DNA from: Candidatus Woesebacteria bacterium RIFCSPHIGHO2_01_FULL_39_32
GTDB taxonomy: Bacteria; Patescibacteriota; Microgenomatia; UBA8517
NCBI GenBank assembly: GCA_001792345.1
Contig: MGGJ01000013.1
Span: forward strand, 85,371 to 149,370
Length of the DNA: 64,000 bases
Direction of reading: 5' to 3'
Below, piece by piece: positions 20,154 through 42,430 of the stretch (positions are counted from its first letter, which is position 1; every line of letters begins with the position of its first letter). The notes under the pieces are model-generated. The model was given only the letters and a program-made list of their open reading frames with translations. It did not search any database and was not told where the DNA came from. The position numbers and the translations under genes are program-made.

Positions 20154-20744
20154 CTAATTTGAAGACAATTTTTCTTTGAATTCTTCATACGAATTATAAA
20201 CTTTTGCATTTATTCCCACTTCTTTTGCTACCTCAACATTTTTCGGATCGTCGTCCCAGTATTCTAAATCTTGAGGCTTTAAATTCAACTTATTTAAAAC
20301 CTTTTGAAAAAACTCAGGTTCTCCCTTGGTATAACCCAAATCAAAAGAAAAAAATCCTCCATCAAACTCATTTTTAAGTCCAAGTTTTTCCATTATATAC
20401 TTTCCTCTTTCTACCTCATTATCTGAAACCAGATATATTTTGTTTCCCATATTGCGTAAGTCCCTCACTACCCCTAGAACATTTTCGTCCAAAGTTCTCT
20501 CGCTATCAAACCAGTAATTTAAAAATTCTTCAACGCTTCCTTTCCATCTCCATTTTGAAAGATAGGCCGGCAAGACCTCCTTTATGGTCGTCTCTCCTCT
20601 GGCTGCCTTTTTATACTCTCCTTTGAAAAACGGAAGAATATCCTTCAAAGGAACTCCATGATCTTCTGAGTATCTTACACTGAAATATTTATGGCGCGGT
20701 CGAATTACGATTCCATCTAAATCCAATAAAATTATTTTCGACAT
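20154..20744 (-). CDS. HAD-superfamily hydrolase
   Basis: Motif I LLDLDGIV. Motif IV WDDDPKNV. Confidence 0.6.
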   Translation of the reverse strand: MSKIILLDLDGIVIRPRHKYFSVRYSEDHGVPLKDILPFFKGEYKKAARGETTIKEVLPAYLSKWRWKGSVEEFLNYWFDSERTLDENVLGVVRDLRNMGNKIYLVSDNEVERGKYIMEKLGLKNEFDGGFFSFDLGYTKGEPEFFQKVLNKLNLKPQDLEYWDDDPKNVEVAKEVGINAKVYNSYEEFKEKLSSN

Positions 20745-20787
20745 GGAGTTATTGTAACACGCTTTTCAGATGGTAAAATAACTTCTA

Positions 20788-21243
20788 GTGAAGATAATTA
20801 ACCCTTCGACTCTCAGGTCCCAAAAAAAGAGCACGCTCAGGGTTAATACTGAGCGAAGTCGAAGTATTAAAAAAGAATATCATATTTGGGTTCCACAATC
20901 CGAAGTTTGGAATGCTCTCGTTAACCCCGAAACAATCCAAAAATGGGGTGAGGGAAAAGCTAACATGAGCGAAAAAGTAGGTGTGAAATTTAGTCTTTGG
21001 GATGGCCAGATACATGGAACTAATTTGGAAGTAATACCTCAAAAAAAGTTGGTTCAGGAGTGGTATTCAAGTGACGATCCCGATCACGTAACAAAAGTTA
21101 CGTTTACCTTGACTCATAAAGACGGGTGCACTGCTTTATACCTGAAACACGAAGGTGTTCGTGAGAAAAATTACGACTCAATAGATAAAGGTTGGGATGA
21201 TTATTACTTAGGAGAAATTAAAAAATTACTGGAGAAAAAATAA
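20788..21243 (+). CDS. SRPBCC-fold protein, Activator-of-Hsp90-ATPase (AHSA1)-like
   Basis: Domain begins at EYHIWVPQSEVWNALVNPE. The first ~30 codons of the track ORF (GTG start) are encoded by a palindromic repeat element, so the true start is uncertain. Confidence 0.5.
   Translation: MKIINPSTLRSQKKSTLRVNTERSRSIKKEYHIWVPQSEVWNALVNPETIQKWGEGKANMSEKVGVKFSLWDGQIHGTNLEVIPQKKLVQEWYSSDDPDHVTKVTFTLTHKDGCTALYLKHEGVREKNYDSIDKGWDDYYLGEIKKLLEKK
20802..20864. repeat. Composite copy of a GC-rich palindromic element family (CCCTTCGACTCTCAGG ... CTGAGCGAAGTCGAAG)
   Basis: Inverted arms with a ~30-nt spacer. The 17-mer CTGAGCGAAGTCGAAG(G) recurs exactly at 24361-24377. Related copies lie at 7896-7921, 21963-21996, 22873-22900 and 42223-42243. 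Confidence 0.6.
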
Positions 21244-21245
21244 CT

Positions 21246-22331
21246 TCACAAATATTTCTGAAAAAACTCGACTGTGTTTTGCATCGCTTGGGAAAATGCT
21301 GAACCAGTTAAATTATGACCGCCCGAAGAATATTCATTCAATTCGTGCGGAATGCTAGTTTTATCTAATAAACTATCTAAATTTTTACTATATTCAATAC
21401 TCACAACGTTATCATTTACCGCATGGTTAAGTTGCACTGCTCCTTTTATATCCGAGAGATAATTTGTCGCAGGAACTTGTTTCCAAAACCAATGATCTGG
21501 ATTAAATGTGCCATAAGCATCACGAAGTTGCTGTCTTTTTTTAGCTCTTTCCGAATCAGGCGGTGGCGGCTGATAAGAAGTATCTTCTATCCGATACTCC
21601 TGTAAATCCTGGTATGTGTAGCCTGCGCCAGCCCAAATAACAACTGCAGGAATTTCTGGATTAGCTCCCAAAGCTCTAAAAACAACATTTCCTGCCATCG
21701 AATGGCCCCATAAACCAATTGCCCTTGGGTTTACAAAATCAGTATTTCTTAATGCGGCAATAGCGTTTAGTGTGTCAATAACATAATCGGACGAATAATA
21801 TCCTCCACCAGGTTCGCCTTCTGAATTCCCATGTCCGCGAAGGTCTATTTTAAAAACAACAAACCCGTTTTTTGCAAGATAGTCTACATAGGAATTGTAA
21901 TTTACAGTTGTTTGATAATTTTGGGGCGGAATGTAACCGTGTACGAAAATGATAGCTGGATACCTTCGACTATCACCCTGAGCGTTAGTCGAAGGGCTTT
22001 CCTTCGGTATAGTTAATAGCCCATAGACAGTCAGTCCATCAGAATCATAGCTAGTAACGTAAGAGGTATAAATTAGTGTTTCGTTTCCCTTTCGCATTTC
22101 TTCCAGATTACTTAGATAAGATCGTTTTCTTAAATAAGGAATAGTTAATTCTTGAAAAGCAAATGGAGTAGGTGTTGGCGAGGATAATGTTATTGCTTTA
22201 TTAACACCTTCTAAAACCGGCAGAATGACTTCTTTTTTATCACTCCGATTGAAAATGGCAAAGAAAAGAATTCCCAAACCAACTATTAGAATTAACAAAA
22301 TGGGTGTAAAACCTTGAATACTTTTTCTCAT
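21246..22331 (-). CDS. Membrane-anchored alpha/beta hydrolase (S9/dienelactone-hydrolase-like), paralog 1
   Basis: N-terminal TM. GxSxG nucleophile elbow GHSMAGNV. Acid and His likely near the C-terminus. Confidence 0.7.
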   Translation of the reverse strand: MRKSIQGFTPILLILIVGLGILFFAIFNRSDKKEVILPVLEGVNKAITLSSPTPTPFAFQELTIPYLRKRSYLSNLEEMRKGNETLIYTSYVTSYDSDGLTVYGLLTIPKESPSTNAQGDSRRYPAIIFVHGYIPPQNYQTTVNYNSYVDYLAKNGFVVFKIDLRGHGNSEGEPGGGYYSSDYVIDTLNAIAALRNTDFVNPRAIGLWGHSMAGNVVFRALGANPEIPAVVIWAGAGYTYQDLQEYRIEDTSYQPPPPDSERAKKRQQLRDAYGTFNPDHWFWKQVPATNYLSDIKGAVQLNHAVNDNVVSIEYSKNLDSLLDKTSIPHELNEYSSGGHNLTGSAFSQAMQNTVEFFQKYL

Positions 22332-22376
22332 TAATAAATACTACTAAATCCAATTTAATATTTGAAGTTTTGTAAG

Positions 22377-23468
22377 TTACTTAAGATTTTTGTTAAAAAA
22401 TTCAACAGATCGGGAAAGTGCAAGGGATAAGTTTTTACTAAGATTATGATCGTCACCCTCGTATATATAAAGTTCTACTTCTTTCCCTGCATCTTTCATT
22501 TGAGCTTCCAATGTTTTAGAGAATTCTAAGGGAACCGAAGTGTCTGCTGTTCCATGATGAAGCTGTAAAGGTCCAGAAATGTCGGCTAAATAAGAGTTGG
22601 GAGATATAGATTTCCAAAATTCTGGATTTTGATATGGATCTCCGTATTTTTCTATTAGTTCACGTCTCCATCTACCTCTCTGACTCATCGGGTTAATCGT
22701 GGGTGTTGGACCCAGTCTTTTCCTCCAGCGTTCAATCAAATCAGGGTAGCTCCCTACGACCCCTGCCCAGATGACACCGGCTTTAACATCCTTTGTAGTA
22801 ACCATTGCTTTTAGCGTAATCGAACCACCCATCGAATGTCCCCACATTCCAATCCGACTTGTGTCAACAAGTCGTCCTGAGCGACCTAAGGGAGTCGAAG
22901 GATCCTCCGAAAGGTCATTTAGCCTTTTAATAGAGGCGACGGCATTTAGTATGTCAATTGTATACGCATTTGATCCATAACCTCCTGTTGCATCTCCTTC
23001 AGAATTTCCATGCCCACGATAGTCGGATTTGAAAGTTACATAGCCTGCTCTGGCAAATGCATCCTGATACGCAACATATTTTTCGGTAGTTTTATAAATG
23101 GAAGGTGAAATGTAACCGTGATTGAAAATGATAGCTGGCCAACCTCCCACTGGCTGAGTTCCATTCGGTGCGGTTAATAAGCCATAAATTTTTAAGCCTT
23201 CGGATTTATATGAGGCAATATACCTTTTGTAGTTAGATCCTGCGCTTAGAGTTTGTTCGATAATAATATCGCTTCCTGGATATTCGCCTTCTCTGAGGGC
23301 TTGAATCGACAGTGGATGCGGCTCAACTTCTGGACCGCCTTCATTTTCTTGAACAACATTGTATATTATAGATTCCCTAACATCCTGATTTTTTGAAGAA
23401 TAAACATAAGCACTCACCCCCAATAAGATAAGAAGGAAAATTAGTACGAATTTGTTTTTTGTGACCAT
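22377..23468 (-). CDS. Membrane-anchored alpha/beta hydrolase, tandem paralog 2
   Basis: GHSMGGSIT. Colinear with paralog 1 along its length. Confidence 0.7.
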   Translation of the reverse strand: MVTKNKFVLIFLLILLGVSAYVYSSKNQDVRESIIYNVVQENEGGPEVEPHPLSIQALREGEYPGSDIIIEQTLSAGSNYKRYIASYKSEGLKIYGLLTAPNGTQPVGGWPAIIFNHGYISPSIYKTTEKYVAYQDAFARAGYVTFKSDYRGHGNSEGDATGGYGSNAYTIDILNAVASIKRLNDLSEDPSTPLGRSGRLVDTSRIGMWGHSMGGSITLKAMVTTKDVKAGVIWAGVVGSYPDLIERWRKRLGPTPTINPMSQRGRWRRELIEKYGDPYQNPEFWKSISPNSYLADISGPLQLHHGTADTSVPLEFSKTLEAQMKDAGKEVELYIYEGDDHNLSKNLSLALSRSVEFFNKNLK

Positions 23469-23487
23469 TGTTACATTTTACCCAAGG

Positions 23488-23550
23488 ATTTAAAAGTGTA
23501 AAGAAGGACGCACCAACTGGTGCGTCCCCCCTTGTGATAAGAAACAAACC
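23488..23550 (-). terminator. Hairpin terminator downstream of the CpxP-like gene
   Basis: GGACGCACC AACT GGTGCGTCC is a perfect 9-bp GC-rich stem. A T-rich tract follows on the minus strand. Confidence 0.45.
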
Positions 23551-24057
23551 TTAATTGTTTGTACCCATCATGTAACCTTTGTGGAATCCACGCATAAAGC
23601 CGCGACCGAAAGGTCCCAAAAGCGGTAGATCTATCCCCGGCCCTTCTGCCCAGGTTTTAAATTCATCATGAAGAGCATGCATCTTCTCATGTCTTTCTTC
23701 CACATTCAAATCTTTCCACTCTTCCATTTTGTTGTGCATCTCTTCGTGTTTATCTAAAATTACCTGCTTTTGTTCGGCTGTTATTTTCCCATCATTTACA
23801 AGATCGTCTAACCTTTCAGACCACCTTGCTTGCATTTCTGCATAATGTTCTTCTCTATCTTCTACAAAAACTGCCTGTACATCAGCCTCATTTAAATTAA
23901 ACTTCTCGGCAATCTTTTGAACAATCGATGGATAGTCGTCGGAATCTTGTGCCGAAGCAACCGAAACGCTTAATAATCCAACTAGAATTACTCCTAAAAC
24001 TAACATTGTGGGAAAAATTACTTTCTTTACCTTTTTACTCATATATCTCACCACCAA
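23551..24057 (-). CDS. Secreted helical protein, possibly CpxP/Spy-like periplasmic stress protein
   Basis: Signal peptide. An LTxxQ-like segment (ITAEQKQVI). Lies immediately downstream of the two-component system. Confidence 0.35.
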   Translation of the reverse strand: MVVRYMSKKVKKVIFPTMLVLGVILVGLLSVSVASAQDSDDYPSIVQKIAEKFNLNEADVQAVFVEDREEHYAEMQARWSERLDDLVNDGKITAEQKQVILDKHEEMHNKMEEWKDLNVEERHEKMHALHDEFKTWAEGPGIDLPLLGPFGRGFMRGFHKGYMMGTNN

Positions 24058-24106
24058 TCTAATTCTCTAATACCTTAACTAATAAACCTGAAAAAACGCT
24101 GAAGAA

Positions 24107-25177
24107 TCAGGCGGGAAGAATAACTTTAAATGTGGAACCTTTACCTACTTCGCTTTTAACTTTAATTTCTCCTTTGTGTACATCAACAATTGACTTAGCA
24201 ATTGAAAGGCCGAGGCCGTAGCCATCTATTTTGGCTTTACTTCTTGAAGAATCGGCTCTGTAAAAGCGATCGAAAATGTGAAGAATATCTTTTTCTGCAA
24301 TTCCAACTCCTTCATCTTTAACCTCGATCACAGCATTTTTTCTCAAACCCCTTAGTTGTCCTGAGCGAAGTCGAAGGACTCTTACTCTTACTTCTGATTT
24401 CTCTGGAGAATATTTAACTGCATTATTAATCAGAATTGAGATAAGTTCTACCAAACTTTGCGGGTTACCATTTACAACAACTTCTGACAAATCATCTTTA
24501 ATCGTAATCTTTTTCTCTACAGCCACCGGCATATTTCTTTCAATCGCTTGCCGAGAAGCTTCTACAAGATCAACCTCTTCCGTTAGTAAATTATTTCCGT
24601 TTGTTTCATAACGAGACAAAGATAAAAGGTTGTCTGTAAAATATTTCATTTTATCTACTTCGGCTAAATTACTTTTTAATAAGTCTTTTGCGTCTTTTAA
24701 AATTAATTTTTTGTCACGAAGAGCTACTTCTACCTCGGTTTTCATCGATGCTAAAGGTGTGCGAAGTTCGTGAGAAGCATCTGCAACAAATCTCTTTTGT
24801 TCTTCAACCATTACTTCAATAGGGGCAAGTGTCTTTCCAGCCAAAAAATATCCTGAAGTTCCAGCTAGAATTAAAATTCCTCCGTTTATTATTAATAGCT
24901 GTAAAGCAAACCTACGTTTGGCGAGATTTATAATTTCAATAAATTCCTCGGGAGGAAGTTCGTCCGGGTAAATTAAAAAGGGTAAAATTCGAAAAAATCC
25001 GTTTCGCTCTTGAACAACTATTCTTTGCTGTGCGGCGCCTCGAAGCGCCTGCATATGAAATCCACGCCCAAGTTCTTTCGTAAAACCTCGGTAAACAATC
25101 AGACTAAAAAACCCGCTTACTATCATAATAATAAGCAGGTACCAGAGAGTTAATTTAATTCGAGCGTTTTCAAACAT
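24107..25177 (-). CDS. Sensor histidine kinase (HisKA + HATPase_c)
   Basis: Two TM segments, H-box ASHELRTPLASM, and N, G1 (VKDEGVGI) and G2 boxes. Confidence 0.85.
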   Translation of the reverse strand: MFENARIKLTLWYLLIIMIVSGFFSLIVYRGFTKELGRGFHMQALRGAAQQRIVVQERNGFFRILPFLIYPDELPPEEFIEIINLAKRRFALQLLIINGGILILAGTSGYFLAGKTLAPIEVMVEEQKRFVADASHELRTPLASMKTEVEVALRDKKLILKDAKDLLKSNLAEVDKMKYFTDNLLSLSRYETNGNNLLTEEVDLVEASRQAIERNMPVAVEKKITIKDDLSEVVVNGNPQSLVELISILINNAVKYSPEKSEVRVRVLRLRSGQLRGLRKNAVIEVKDEGVGIAEKDILHIFDRFYRADSSRSKAKIDGYGLGLSIAKSIVDVHKGEIKVKSEVGKGSTFKVILPA

Positions 25178-42128: not shown

Positions 42129-42174
42129 TAATTATTCACCTTCCTTCATTATTACATTTATTGTTGACCAATAA

Positions 42175-42430
42175 AAAAAGCCCTTGCAAACCAATAAACT
42201 CCCAATTATTAGTTCACAAGGGCCCTTCGACTTTGCTCAGGACTGTACCACCTTGTTCTTGTTACTCCATCGCTAAAGTAACCTTACTAGCTGGCTCCAA
42301 TAGTTATCGACACCAGCGTCTCTATTTTACGGTAGGGCTTCCGTACTGCTCGTCGCAGTCTGCTCATTTGGCGGGAAACCAAATTCTAACGCTTTATTTA
42401 ATTGTTAATAGAAAAAGTATAACAGAAATA
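42175..42430 (-). ncRNA. Candidate structured small RNA or leader (unassigned class) in an unusually long GC-richer gap
   Basis: A 300-bp non-coding gap in a tightly packed region. It appears GC-richer than its surroundings. At its minus-strand 3' end is a hairpin GCCCTTG..CAAGGGC followed by TTTTTTT. It contains one copy of the CCTTCGACT..GCTCAGGAC palindromic element. Confidence 0.25.

What the first reader, a model, noticed from the sequence alone, without database searches (positions are those of the whole stretch)
21246..23468. Tandem alpha/beta-hydrolase paralogs differ by element-borne in-frame insertions
Hydrolase 1 reads ...IPKESPSTNAQGDSRRYPAIIFVHG where hydrolase 2 reads ...NGTQPVGGWPAIIFNHG. 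Hydrolase 2 reads ...KRLNDLSEDPSTPLGRSGRLVDTSRIGMWGHS where hydrolase 1 reads ...LRNTDFVNPRAIGLWGHS. Both extra segments are encoded by the CCTTCGACT...GCTCAGG palindrome. This is direct within-window evidence that the element inserted after the gene duplication.
Basis: seen in the sequence. Interest (0 to 1): 0.55.

Follow-up and report, generated by a model that had tools for sequence, protein, structure and literature searches.

The report
Hairpin repeat inserted inside hydrolase genes
Two neighbouring hydrolase genes of a Microgenomates (candidate phyla radiation) bacterium each carry, in a floppy surface loop, an in-frame copy of a 20-30-base hairpin repeat found from these tiny bacteria to Proteobacteria. 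The same loops have been hit again and again in related genomes, so this is a clear, well-documented case of a kind of "repeat living inside a protein" already known from Rickettsia and a few other bacteria.

Summary
The two tandem alpha/beta-hydrolase genes (39% identical) differ by two indels, and each coincides with a copy of the motif CCTTCGACT...GCTCAGG on the coding strand. The motif occurs as six units at five places in the window, against 0.36 expected for its 9-mer. Orthologues polarise both indels as insertions much younger than the paralogue split. Both inserts lie in low-confidence coil loops of the predicted folds.

The element is a short REP-like hairpin with a bipartite core, CCTTCGAC-N2-4-GCTCAGG. 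The same core is present in Microgenomates, Chloroflexi, an Acidobacteria-like contig and Alpha/Beta/Gammaproteobacteria. No Rfam family matches it, and no searchable paper prints it.

Three features go beyond the finding:
- The same loops, and a histidine-kinase turn 1 kb away, hold copies in different frames and in opposite orientations in different lineages.
- An old orthologous insert keeps the two half-sites at synonymous positions.
- Nearly identical alleles differ only at the insert.

The mobilising mechanism is not established; a link to a REP-associated transposase was tested and not supported. Intragenic REPs and Rickettsia palindromic elements are the known precedent, so this is a new variant of a known kind.

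The parts
21246..22331 (-). hyd1: alpha/beta hydrolase (S9/DLH type), 361 aa, with an N-terminal membrane anchor. The catalytic residues are S211, D307 and H339.
   Evidence: ORF; Pfam Hydrolase_4, Abhydrolase_1 and Peptidase_S9; S211, D307 and H339 are invariant in 37 sequences; AlphaFold model with mean pLDDT 85.
21963..21995 (-). Copy B, the in-frame element in hyd1. The core CCTTCGACTaacGCTCAGG occupies 21995 down to 21977, and a lineage-specific right arm AGTCGAAGG occupies 21971 down to 21963. It encodes P113-R123 (PSTNAQGDSRR).
   Evidence: The DNA fold has a 9-bp stem, z = -3.0. The profile hit has E = 1.8e-5. It lies in coil between strands E100-109 and E124-130, where the 10-residue block 111-120 has mean pLDDT 60 against 97 on either side. 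The orthologous inserts in P0041, P0027, P0006, P0114, P0010 and P0015 have the same frame and length.
22377..23468 (-). hyd2: alpha/beta hydrolase (S9/DLH type), 363 aa. The catalytic residues are S212, D309 and H341.
   Evidence: ORF; Pfam; invariant residues; AlphaFold model with mean pLDDT 81.
22869..22913 (-). The 15-aa insertion in hyd2 (residues 186-200, LSEDPSTPLGRSGRL) relative to the empty allele P0123. It contains copy C: the core CCTTCGACT (22901-22893), a 10-nt interruption, then GCTCAGG (22882-22876).
   Evidence: BLASTP against P0123 places the gap. DNA. It lies in coil between H168-181 and E201-212, with pLDDT below 50 at residues 189-196. The same interrupted core is present in the 78%-identical orthologue L001, and a decayed version in L002/L004.
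22855..22874 (-). An 8-bp hairpin, CGACTTGT-tgac-ACAAGTCG. It joins the 3' end of the insert to the native codons for D-T-S-R.
   Evidence: Fold. L024 has CGATTTGT/ACAAATCG, a C-G to T-A double change. L009 and L001 keep 7 of 8 pairs.
24360..24377 (-). Copy D: an in-frame core CCTTCGACTTCGCTCAGG in the HATPase_c domain of the histidine kinase 24107-25177(-). It encodes LRLRSGQ and adds 8 aa at a beta-hairpin turn.
   Evidence: Profile E = 5e-7. The orthologues in L007 and L009 are empty. L002/L004 hold a reverse-orientation copy of another subfamily (PELVEG) at the same turn.
20803..20865 (+). Copy A: two core units in inverted orientation (a REPIN-like doublet). It lies between divergent genes, at or upstream of the 5' end of the AHSA1-family ORF 20788-21243.
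   Evidence: It folds into a long hairpin, z = -5.2. The Pfam AHSA1 match starts only at residue 35 of the ORF.
42224..42241 (+). Copy E: an intergenic core CCTTCGACTTTGCTCAGG between the M50 peptidase gene and the tRNA-binding-domain gene. It sits next to a terminator-like hairpin with a T-run on the minus strand.
   Evidence: the hairpin has z = -3.6. Profile E = 8.6e-6.

Best explanation
The two extra peptide segments are in-frame copies of one short, dispersed, hairpin-forming DNA repeat. Its core on the coding strand is CCTTCGAC, a short variable spacer, then GCTCAGG. It behaves like a REP/RPE-type element.

Shown:
- The repeat is present as six units at five places in this 64-kb Microgenomates window. 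Three of the five places are inside genes, and four of the five fall within 3.6 kb.
- The same core occurs in many phyla, mostly between genes, where it forms the centre of lineage-specific hairpins and inverted doublets.
- In each hydrolase the copy sits in frame in a disordered loop between secondary-structure elements.
- The Ser-Asp-His triad and the reading frame are intact.
- Orthologues without the insert exist.

The enzymes therefore most likely tolerate the extra 6-15 residues as surface decoration; this step is inferred.

Timing: the hyd1 insert is an old event inherited by several Levybacteria/Woesebacteria-type orthologues. The hyd2 insert is shared with its nearest relatives and is polymorphic among them. 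Both are far younger than the paralogue split.

The sites are dynamic. The same loops carry copies in other frames and in the opposite orientation in other lineages, and nearly identical alleles differ only at the insert.

Inferred, not shown: copies spread or are renewed through single-stranded hairpin intermediates. This could happen by transposition with a Y1/HUH (RAYT-like) enzyme acting in trans, or by template switching or gene conversion at hairpins. Existing copies attract new ones. Fold-back copying would have created the perfect right arm of the hyd1 copy.
For: Repeat identity and excess over chance:
-.

In-frame coincidence with the indels:
-.

Polarity from orthologues:
-.

Conserved synteny, hence an old paralogue pair:
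-.

Loop location:
-.

Recurrent occupation of hyd2 site 2 in at least three configurations:
- Forward, PST.SG frame: window, L001, L002, L008, L024.
- Forward, LRQAQG frame: L033.
- Reverse: L012.
- A mixed reverse-plus-forward arrangement: L009.

Histidine kinase turn:
- Forward copy in the window, reverse copy in L002/L004, empty in L007 and L009.

Enrichment and clustering:
- 6 of 13 non-redundant strict-core hits in about 1.3 Mb of hydrolase-centred loci (Microgenomates and Chloroflexi) lie inside hyd2, which makes up about 6% of that sequence (binomial p = 5.5e-5).
- 4 of 5 window loci lie within 3.6 kb (p = 0.003).

Turnover:
- P0124 is about 97-100% identical to hyd2 over residues 115-363 except in the insert.
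- P0123 is 100% identical over residues 1-120, then divergent and empty.

Family breadth:
- At least 120 viral contigs with 31-71% GC. The spacer is AA or AG in 78 of 135 copies, and the flanks form a stem. The typical canonical form read from these copies is ccgttcgCCCT-TCGACAAGCTC-AGGGcgaacgg.
- At least 120 metagenome contigs for the CCTTCGACTNNGCTCAGG subfamily.
- Exact 27-28-mers in Sphingobium (up to 22 per replicon), Comamonas and Polaromonas, and close matches in Moraxella, almost always in unannotated sequence.
- Chloroflexi loci L063, L066 and L068.

REP-like features:
- An inverted doublet in L166 and window copy A.
- Of 27 copies in contigs with GC of 45% or less, 7 lie inside open frames longer than 280 aa.

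Precedent:
- Intragenic REPs and RPEs are described in PMC3733652.
Against: - No target-site duplication or defined ends could be seen, so the unit of insertion is not delimited.
- No mobilising enzyme is linked to the motif. One RAYT gene (L287) has copies 11 and 197 nt away, but four other loci of the same RAYT clade are flanked by a different hairpin. The RAYT-like genes found in two Microgenomates loci are also flanked by other palindromes.
- The element does not behave as decaying junk. In seven hyd1 orthologues (56-75% aa identity) the codons TCG, ACT and CAG of the motif are invariant, and CCT is invariant in six. Only 3 of 65 other conserved 4-6-fold codons are invariant.
- In L033 the core at site 1 replaces native sequence with a net gain of only 1 aa. 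That looks more like conversion than simple insertion.
- The neighbour-joining trees used to count gains and losses (30 changes for 63 of 122 filled) are poorly resolved, and the gene is a recombination mosaic. The number of independent events is therefore uncertain.
Confidence: 0.78

Rival explanations
1. The motif is a functional nucleic-acid signal, either a binding site for a conserved protein or an RNA/DNA hairpin signal. On this view it is kept by purifying selection wherever it lies, including inside genes. The coding copies are then maintained signals, not passengers. This is compatible with an origin by insertion.
For: - The bipartite core is identical in contigs from 31 to 71% GC and across phyla, while the spacer and flanking stems vary.
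- An orthologous hyd1 insert shows the same pattern. The half-sites are invariant at synonymous positions in 6-7 lineages, while the 4 nt between them and the 3' tail vary freely. Background invariance is 3 of 65 codons, giving p of about 1e-4 to 1e-5.
- CCT TCG AC is invariant in five hyd2 lineages, whereas 0 of 88 conserved 4-6-fold codons are invariant in a six-sequence set consisting of those five plus L009.
- Intergenic copies sit at or inside terminator-like hairpins (L032, window copy E).
Against: - Many orthologous inserts have decayed, for example KLKDPSDSKALIAD, PSVSPQDD and DSSSSTQND.
- Density in the hydrolase-centred loci, which are mostly Microgenomates, is low, about 1 strict core per 100 kb.
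- Copies occur in both orientations and several frames at one site, which a positional signal would not need.
- No factor is known, and Rfam has nothing.
- Repeated conversion or re-insertion would give the same synonymous-site pattern.
Confidence: 0.25
2. There is no mobile element. The palindromic segments arose in place by template switching (quasipalindrome or fold-back copying) during replication, and look alike by chance or because of the local sequence.
For: - The right arm AGTCGAAGG of copy B is absent from all six orthologous inserts, which read GGC AAA AAA and similar. It would need about six substitutions, all towards complementarity.
- The hairpin after copy C pairs insert sequence with native codons, and it co-varies in L024.
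Against: - The same 15-16-nt core is found at unrelated loci in the window (histidine kinase and two intergenic sites) and in hundreds of unrelated contigs. Local copying cannot produce that.
- It can explain the arms, but not the core.
Confidence: 0.05
3. The inserts are adaptive peptide loops, for example substrate-access or interaction loops, selected at the protein level.
For: The inserts are retained in intact genes over long times. They lie on either side of the core beta-sheet strands near the nucleophile elbow.
Against: - The same DNA core is read in different frames (PSTSSG, LRQAQG, LRLRSGQ) and in reverse (PELVEG, ALSGVEG) at the same site in orthologues.
- It also occurs between genes.
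- The conservation is at synonymous positions, and the peptides vary.
- Predicted confidence in the inserts is low.
Confidence: 0.04
4. The motif is a DNA-uptake signal sequence (like DUS/USS) of competent candidate-phyla-radiation bacteria, accumulated in tolerant parts of genes.
For: - It is a short motif in both orientations.
- It forms inverted pairs that make terminator-like hairpins.
- It is present in permissive parts of proteins.
Against: - It is not taxon-specific. The same core is in Proteobacteria, Chloroflexi and an Acidobacteria-like contig.
- Density is roughly 10 to 100 times lower than the roughly one per kb I remember for DUS/USS.
- It adds residues rather than recoding existing ones.
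Confidence: 0.03
5. The motif is due to chance or to an assembly or adapter artefact.
For: An identical short sequence in very different assemblies could suggest a technical contaminant.
Against: - Shuffles never reach the observed count.
- Copies are in frame, diverged and decayed in orthologues from independent projects.
- Copies are present in finished plasmids of cultured bacteria.
- The protein clusters hold several member sequences.
Confidence: 0.01

Closest known systems
Rickettsia palindromic elements (RPE; Ogata et al. 2000, cited from my own knowledge; the short RPE-4 and RPE-6 are treated as CGTC-type REPs in PMC3733652)
   Same: - Dispersed palindromic repeats inserted in frame in many unrelated protein-coding genes.
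- The ORFs stay intact.
- The inserts are absent from orthologues.
- The encoded peptides are thought to sit on protein surfaces.
- No dedicated transposase is known.
   Different: - RPE-1 is 100-150 bp and confined to Rickettsia. This core is 17-33 nt and is found across phyla.
- There is no sequence resemblance.
- Here the same loop is occupied repeatedly, in both orientations and in several frames.
- Here the half-sites are conserved at synonymous positions.
Intragenic REPs of the GTAG and CGTC superfamilies (Di Nocera, De Gregorio and Rocco 2013, PMC3733652)
   Same: - 20-40-nt palindromic repeats, mostly extragenic, often arranged as inverted dimers.
- Some lie entirely within ORFs and encode extra residues, possibly in linkers or loops.
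- Found in Opitutus terrae, R. conorii, Thauera and others.
   Different: - Those REPs have an unpaired GTAG or CGTC tag, stems of 8-9 bp or longer, and (CGTC families) loops of 4-5 nt.
- This element has no such tag.
- Here the conserved part is an 11-12-nt loop closed by CCCT/AGGG.
- Candidate phyla radiation bacteria are not among the species named in the parts of that paper I read.
- That paper reports an enrichment in DNA repair genes, which is not seen here.
REPIN-RAYT systems (Bertels and Rainey 2011, PMC3116915)
   Same: - Short hairpins.
- Inverted doublets (window copy A; L166).
- Long persistence at orthologous positions.
- Y1/HUH transposase genes exist in Microgenomates loci.
   Different: - No RAYT is consistently flanked by this motif; the count is 1 of 5 loci in one clade.
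- REPINs are family- or genus-specific and extragenic, whereas this core crosses phyla and enters genes.
HIP1 and other highly iterated palindromes of cyanobacteria (cited from my own knowledge)
   Same: A short palindromic motif that occurs inside coding regions and is kept at orthologous positions beyond what codon usage explains.
   Different: - HIP1 is an 8-mer at very high density that arises by substitution and does not add residues.
- This motif is rarer, longer and bipartite, and it adds 6-15 residues.
DNA uptake sequences (DUS/USS) of Neisseriaceae and Pasteurellaceae (cited from my own knowledge)
   Same: - Short motifs found in genes in tolerant frames and positions.
- They also occur as inverted pairs in terminators.
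   Different: - Uptake sequences are taxon-specific and occur about once per kb without adding residues.
- This motif is cross-phylum, sparse and insertional.

Membership tests
In-frame palindromic repeat insertions (RPE-type phenomenon) | The element is a dispersed repeat of the genome | tested here: met
   There are six core units at five loci in 64 kb. The 9-mer occurs 6 times against 0.36 expected.
In-frame palindromic repeat insertions (RPE-type phenomenon) | Copies lie inside ORFs, in frame, with the ORF and catalytic residues intact | tested here: met
   This holds for hyd1, hyd2 and the histidine kinase.
In-frame palindromic repeat insertions (RPE-type phenomenon) | Orthologues lacking the insert exist | tested here: met
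In-frame palindromic repeat insertions (RPE-type phenomenon) | The encoded segment lies on the protein surface or in a loop | tested here: met
   The AlphaFold models show coil with low pLDDT at both inserts. This is a prediction only; no solved structure exists.
Rickettsia RPE families proper | Sequence similarity to RPE-1 to RPE-8, a length of about 100-150 bp (RPE-1), and a Rickettsia host | tested here: not met
   The element is 17-33 nt in a Microgenomates host. It lacks the CGTC tag and the 4-5-nt loop of RPE-4 and RPE-6 as described in PMC3733652. No direct sequence comparison was run.
REP (GTAG/CGTC superfamilies) | An unpaired GTAG or CGTC tag at one end of the stem | tested here: not met
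   None of the window copies or the typical flanks (c-CCTTCGAC...CTCAGG-(a/g)c) show such a tag.
REP (general) | A 20-40-nt imperfect palindrome, high in copy number and mainly extragenic | tested here: inconclusive
   Size and hairpin are met. In Proteobacterial replicons it is extragenic, with up to 22 copies. The copy number in a complete Microgenomates genome is unknown. Three of five window loci are intragenic.
REPIN-RAYT | Inverted doublets (REPINs) | tested here: met
   Window copy A and L166.
REPIN-RAYT | A cognate single-copy RAYT gene flanked by the repeat | tested here: inconclusive
   The L287 RAYT (NF047646, 125 bits) has copies 11 and 197 nt away. Loci L359, L361, L363 and L364 of the same clade are flanked by another hairpin. 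The RAYT-like genes of L050 and L019 are flanked by other palindromes. None was found in the window.
MITE | Terminal inverted repeats matching an IS, a target-site duplication, and a length of 50-500 bp | tested here: not met
   No duplication is seen at filled versus empty sites, and the element is too short.
DNA uptake sequence | A taxon-specific motif at about one per kb | tested here: not met
   The motif is cross-phylum. Its density is about 1 per 13 kb in the window and about 1 per 100 kb in related loci.
Alpha/beta hydrolase, S9/DLH-like (the host proteins) | Family profile match, a GxSxG nucleophile elbow and a Ser-Asp-His triad | tested here: met
   Pfam hits are above the cut-offs. 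GHSMAG and GHSMGG are present, and S, D and H are invariant.

The most novel reading that the evidence does not exclude
The bipartite core CCTTCGAC-N2-4-GCTCAGG may be more than a selfish repeat. It could be a cross-phylum nucleic-acid signal read by a conserved, still unidentified factor. On this reading it is kept by purifying selection at the nucleotide level even inside protein-coding genes of candidate phyla radiation bacteria. It would also be re-created or re-targeted at the same protein loops in either orientation.
Probability: 0.22. Interest if true: 0.8.

Novelty: new variant of a known kind. Interest (0 to 1): 0.5.

Why it matters
For annotation:
- Many odd 6-15-residue loops in proteins of candidate phyla radiation bacteria (PSTSSG, LRLRSGQ, LRQAQG, PELVEG and the like) are translated repeat DNA, not protein features.
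- Spurious ORFs and N-terminal extensions can have the same origin.

For evolution:
- Genomes of about 1 Mb with very little intergenic space still host a dispersed hairpin repeat by parking it in protein loops.
- The hydrolase and kinase loci give a natural series of empty, filled, inverted and decayed alleles. These can be used to measure how such elements arrive, turn over and promote recombination.

For mechanism:
- An identical core occurs from 31% to 71% GC and across phyla.
- The core is conserved at synonymous positions in an inherited insert.
- Together these are unexplained and point to a recognisable partner (a transposase or host factor) that can be looked for.

Tried and rejected
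- **Rfam.** There were no matches at gathering score in the window. A permissive scan of 20500-24700 found nothing relevant. Canonical copies elsewhere gave only sub-threshold generic hairpin hits, such as miRNA models and potC at 29 bits against a cut-off of 44. The window has no tRNA genes.
- **Literature.** Searches for the motif and its six translations found no paper on it. Two keyword searches on candidate phyla radiation bacteria and palindromic insertions found nothing specific.
- **RAYT association.** I scanned 148 ORFs next to copies and found one bona fide RAYT, in L287. Four further loci of its clade carry a different flanking hairpin, so the link is not supported. tblastn of that RAYT against plasmids found only Chromobacterium IS200-like genes. 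Viral contigs gave only distant relatives.
- **DNA of the closest empty allele.** P0123 is not on record, so exact insertion boundaries and a possible target duplication could not be read. More distant empty alleles show no duplication.
- **Counting independent gains on a tree.** Neighbour-joining trees gave 30 changes. The gene is a recombination mosaic and the trees are weak, so I rely instead on orientation and frame differences.
- **GTAG/CGTC REP membership.** Rejected on anatomy.
- **Resemblance to the 5' end of 16S rRNA.** A 15-nt match was noted only against a sequence recalled from memory. It is not used as evidence.
Full report
**1. The observation**

The window carries two adjacent minus-strand genes, 21246-22331 (hyd1, 361 aa) and 22377-23468 (hyd2, 363 aa). 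Both match alpha/beta-hydrolase families: Hydrolase_4, Abhydrolase_1, Peptidase_S9 and DLH. Both keep the GxSxG elbow and the Ser-Asp-His residues that are invariant in their families. They are 39% identical.

- a 6-aa gap at hyd1 ...PKESPSTNAQGDSRRYPAII;
- a 15-aa gap at hyd2 ...RLNDLSEDPSTPLGRSGRLVDTSRIG.

On the coding strand, hyd1 P113-R123 is CCTTCGACT aacGCTCAGGgtgat AGTCGAAGG (window 21995 down to 21963), a perfect 9-bp-stem palindrome. Hyd2 P190-R199 is CCTTCGACT cccttaggtc GCTCAGGacga (22901 down to 22872).

The motif is not a chance pattern:
- CCTTCGACT occurs 6 times against 0.36 expected, and no shuffle reached 6.
- GCTCAGG occurs 11 times against 3.6 expected.
- A profile built from 255 copies from other contigs finds copies in the histidine kinase (24357-24379, E = 5e-7), an intergenic site (42221-42243), hyd1 (21974-21997) and the right unit of an inverted doublet (20849-20864). 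It also finds the split halves of the hyd2 copy, and no other full copy.
- Four of the five loci lie within 3.6 kb, where random placement gives p = 0.003.

**2. The organism and the age of the gene pair**

The closest homologues of both proteins come from Woesebacteria, Levybacteria and other Microgenomates. The window has 38% GC. In a Woesebacteria genome the order response regulator, histidine kinase..., hyd2, hyd1 is conserved.

Hyd2 has 60-66% identical homologues in Chloroflexi. That is far closer than its neighbour hyd1. The paralogue split is therefore ancient and may not be a local duplication.

**3. Polarity of the indels**

*Hyd1 site 1* is the loop before the strand PAIIFVHGY.
- Most of 120 orthologues read PKGExPxxGW.
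- About 25 have a longer loop.
- Seven of these, for which I obtained DNA, share the same frame, position and length: CCT TCG ACT NNN NCT CAG G.. ... (K/R)(K/R) TAT.
- This points to one old insertion that was inherited.

*Hyd2 site 2* is the loop before the strand leading to the nucleophile.
- The Chloroflexi loci recovered and about half of the Microgenomates orthologues have the short form LNAVASIKKYPDADPNRIGMWGHS.
- The window's interrupted core is present almost base for base in a 78%-identical orthologue (L001), and in decayed form in L002/L004.
- No hyd1 orthologue has anything at site 2 (0 of 121).

Both segments are thus insertions younger than the paralogue split.

**4. Position in the proteins**

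AlphaFold models built with the family alignments have mean pLDDT 81 for hyd2 and 85 for hyd1.
- The hyd2 insert (residues 186-200) lies in coil between helix 168-181 and strand 201-212, with pLDDT below 50 at 189-196.
- The hyd1 insert (113-123) lies in coil between strands 100-109 and 124-130, where the block mean drops to 60 from 97.

These are predictions, but they fit tolerated surface loops.

**5. The sites are recurrent and dynamic**

At hyd2 site 2 the core appears in several configurations:
- Forward, in the PST.SG frame, in the window, L001, L002, L008 and L024. In L008 and L024 it is an uninterrupted canonical core (ccTTCGACAGGCTCAGGacaa and ccTTCGACAAGCTCAGGacga).
- Forward, in another frame (MALRQAQGL), in L033.
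- Reverse (ALSGVEG) in L012, downstream of what looks like the remains of an older forward copy.
- As a reverse-plus-forward composite in L009.

The histidine kinase 1 kb away gives an independent case. The window has a forward copy (LRLRSGQ, +8 aa). L002/L004 have a reverse copy of the AAG-spacer subfamily (PELVEG, +9 aa) at the same beta-hairpin turn between the N and G1 boxes. L007 and L009 are empty.

In about 1.3 Mb of hydrolase-centred loci (Microgenomates and Chloroflexi), 6 of 13 non-redundant strict cores fall inside hyd2, which is about 6% of the sequence (p = 5.5e-5).

The gene is also a recombination mosaic:
- P0123 is 100% identical to hyd2 over residues 1-120, then 62-87% identical, and it is empty at site 2.
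- P0124 is 97-100% identical over residues 115-363, except that its insert reads KDPESSSASSGSI instead of NDLSEDPSTPLGRSGRL.

Turnover at the insert is thus much faster than in the rest of the gene.

**6. What the element is**

Scans of public collections show that the core is not peculiar to this lineage.

For the pattern CCTTCGAC-N2-4-GCTCAGG:
- The spacer is AA or AG in 78 of 135 copies.
- Flanks such as ccgttc(g/a)(c/t)...(a/g)cgaacgg extend the CCCT/AGGG pairing. The typical canonical form read from these copies is an 11-bp stem with the loop TCGACAAGCTC.

For the subfamily CCTTCGACTNNGCTCAGG, to which the window copies are closest:
- The spacer is TC in 61 of 136 copies.

In cultured bacteria:
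- Exact 27-28-mers of the canonical hairpin occur in replicons of Sphingobium (up to 22 places), Comamonas and Polaromonas.
- Close matches occur in Moraxella, Sinorhizobium and methanotrophs.
- Nearly all lie in unannotated sequence.

Three Chloroflexi loci also carry it.

Between genes the core sits at the centre of larger, lineage-specific hairpins. Some are followed by T-runs (L032, and next to window copy E), and some are inverted doublets (window copy A, z = -5.2; L166).

Among copies in contigs with GC of 45% or less, 7 of 27 lie inside open frames longer than 280 aa. Residence inside genes is therefore not special to the hydrolases.

Five of the six reading frames of the core are open. 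This explains the recurrent peptides PFDKLR, LRQAQG, PSTSSG, ALSLSK and PELVEG.

**7. Comparison with what is known**

In-frame palindromic repeats are known from Rickettsia (RPE; from my own knowledge). More generally, some REPs of the GTAG and CGTC superfamilies lie entirely within ORFs in Opitutus terrae, R. conorii, Thauera and others (PMC3733652). The phenomenon is therefore a known kind.

This element does not fit those superfamilies. It has no unpaired GTAG or CGTC tag. Its conserved part is an 11-12-nt loop with a short closing stem, not a stem of 8-9 bp or more with a 4-5-nt loop.

Rfam has no family for it. No paper in the searchable library prints the core or its translations.

**8. 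Mechanism: what was tested**

I asked whether a REP-associated tyrosine transposase goes with the motif.
- Of 148 ORFs adjacent to copies, one (L287) is a bona fide RAYT (NCBIfam NF047646, 125 bits). It has motif copies 11 and 197 nt from its ends.
- Its relatives are Solibacter-type Acidobacteria.
- In four further loci of that clade the gene is flanked by a different conserved hairpin, GGGTGCGACTTCAAGTCGCACC / GCGGCTTCAGCCGC, not by the motif.
- The link is therefore not supported.

Two Microgenomates loci encode intact Y1/HUH transposases whose best match is the RAYT model, at 63 and 48 bits, below the cut-off. They are also flanked by other palindromes. Such enzymes exist in these bacteria, but none is tied to this motif.

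Filled and empty sites show no target duplication.

**9. Signs that the copies are not simply decaying**

In the seven hyd1 orthologues (56-75% aa identity):
- The motif codons TCG, ACT and CAG are invariant. CCT is invariant in six and reads CTT in the seventh.
- Only 3 of 65 other conserved 4-6-fold degenerate codons are invariant.
- The four bases between the half-sites and the 3' tail vary freely.

At hyd2 site 2, CCT TCG AC is invariant in five lineages. In a six-sequence set consisting of those five plus L009, 0 of 88 conserved 4-6-fold codons are invariant.

Two explanations remain open. One is nucleotide-level selection on the bipartite core. The other is repeated conversion or re-insertion from other copies. 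Many other orthologous inserts have clearly decayed.

**10. Local hairpin effects**

The perfect right arm of window copy B (AGT CGA AGG) is absent from the six orthologous inserts, which read GGC AAA AAA, GAA CGG AAG and similar. It looks like templated fold-back completion of a quasipalindrome.

Downstream of copy C, the last bases of the insert pair with the native codons for D-T-S-R as an 8-bp hairpin. L024 keeps this hairpin through a C-G to T-A double change.

These observations explain why the hyd1 copy is a palindrome and the hyd2 copy is not. They are inferences.

**11. Verdict**

The finding is real and correctly interpreted in outline. The best-supported account is that a short REP/RPE-like hairpin repeat has entered permissive loops of two old paralogues, and of a nearby kinase, and turns over there.

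The means of spread is unknown. Function beyond tolerance is not shown.

It is a new variant of a known kind, of moderate interest. The interest would rise sharply if the cross-phylum core proved to be a selected signal with a dedicated partner.

Noticed in passing
window 24360-24377 (histidine kinase 24107-25177, minus strand); L002 2205-2219: The kinase carries an in-frame forward copy (LRLRSGQ, +8 aa) at the turn between the N and G1 boxes of HATPase_c. The Woesebacteria orthologue carries a reverse copy of another subfamily (PELVEG, +9 aa) at the same turn. Two other orthologues are empty.
   Followed up: yes
window 20803-20865: An inverted doublet of the core forms a long hairpin (z = -5.2). 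It sits at the start of the AHSA1-family ORF 20788-21243. The Pfam match begins only at residue 35, so the listed GTG start would give an N-terminal extension of about 26 residues encoded by the element, or the doublet is really upstream of the gene.
   Followed up: partly
window 42150-42260: The intergenic copy E lies directly beside a strong terminator-like hairpin with a T-run on the minus strand, downstream of the M50 peptidase gene.
   Followed up: partly
L001 385-407; L007 10306-10328: A second, different in-frame insert occupies hydrolase site 1. It reads GTCCCTCGAAGCCCGGAGGGCGAAGTGGGA (GPVPRSPEGEVG). The 23-nt core I searched for is identical in the two hyd2 orthologues, and the flanking bases shown agree as well. 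The same peptide type appears in hyd1 orthologues P0020, P0034, P0067 and P0077.
   Followed up: no
window 22377-23468 versus P0123 and P0124: Hyd2 is a recombination mosaic. P0123 is 100% identical over residues 1-120 and then 62-87% identical. P0124 is poorly related at the N-terminus but 97-100% identical from residue 115 onwards, except in the insert.
   Followed up: partly
L020, L042, L043, L062, L068 and other Chloroflexi loci: Hyd2 has 60-66% identical homologues in Anaerolineae and Caldilineaceae, much closer than its tandem neighbour hyd1 (39%). This suggests inter-phylum transfer of this hydrolase.
   Followed up: no
L050 1574-2275 (minus strand); L019 105-782 (minus strand): Two Microgenomates loci encode intact HUH/Y1 transposases. 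Pfam Y1_Tnp scores are above the cut-off, and the best NCBIfam match is the REP-associated tyrosine transposase model, below its cut-off. Both are flanked by palindromes unrelated to the motif; the flank in L019 is a perfect palindrome, GACGTGTCCTAG/CTAGGACACGTC.
   Followed up: partly
L220 4269-4367: Four tandem copies of the motif occur with a 27-nt period inside a 175-aa open frame (repeats of MILSEVEGS) in a 48% GC metagenome contig.
   Followed up: no
P0147, P0163 (hyd2 orthologues), site 1: These hyd2 proteins carry the hyd1-type insert PST(N/D)AQ...(G)YPAII at site 1. This suggests gene conversion between the tandem paralogues, or a parallel insertion of the same subfamily.
   Followed up: no
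canonical element variant CCGTTCGTCCTTCGACAGGCTCAGGACGAACGG: One common variant shares the 15-mer GGCTCAGGACGAACG with the 5' end of bacterial 16S rRNA as I remember it (B. subtilis). This is unverified against real rRNA data and may be chance.
   Followed up: no
L005, L006, L011, L017 and many other loci: Contigs of 35-45% GC titled 'uncultured Gammaproteobacteria' or 'Pseudomonadales' encode close relatives of the Microgenomates hyd2. The record titles look taxonomically wrong.
   Followed up: no
window 23494-23547: A perfect GC-rich hairpin, GGACGCACCAACTGGTGCGTCC, lies between hyd2 and the gene upstream of it on the minus strand. It is terminator-like and gave only a weak sub-threshold Rfam hit (STnc320).
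   Followed up: no
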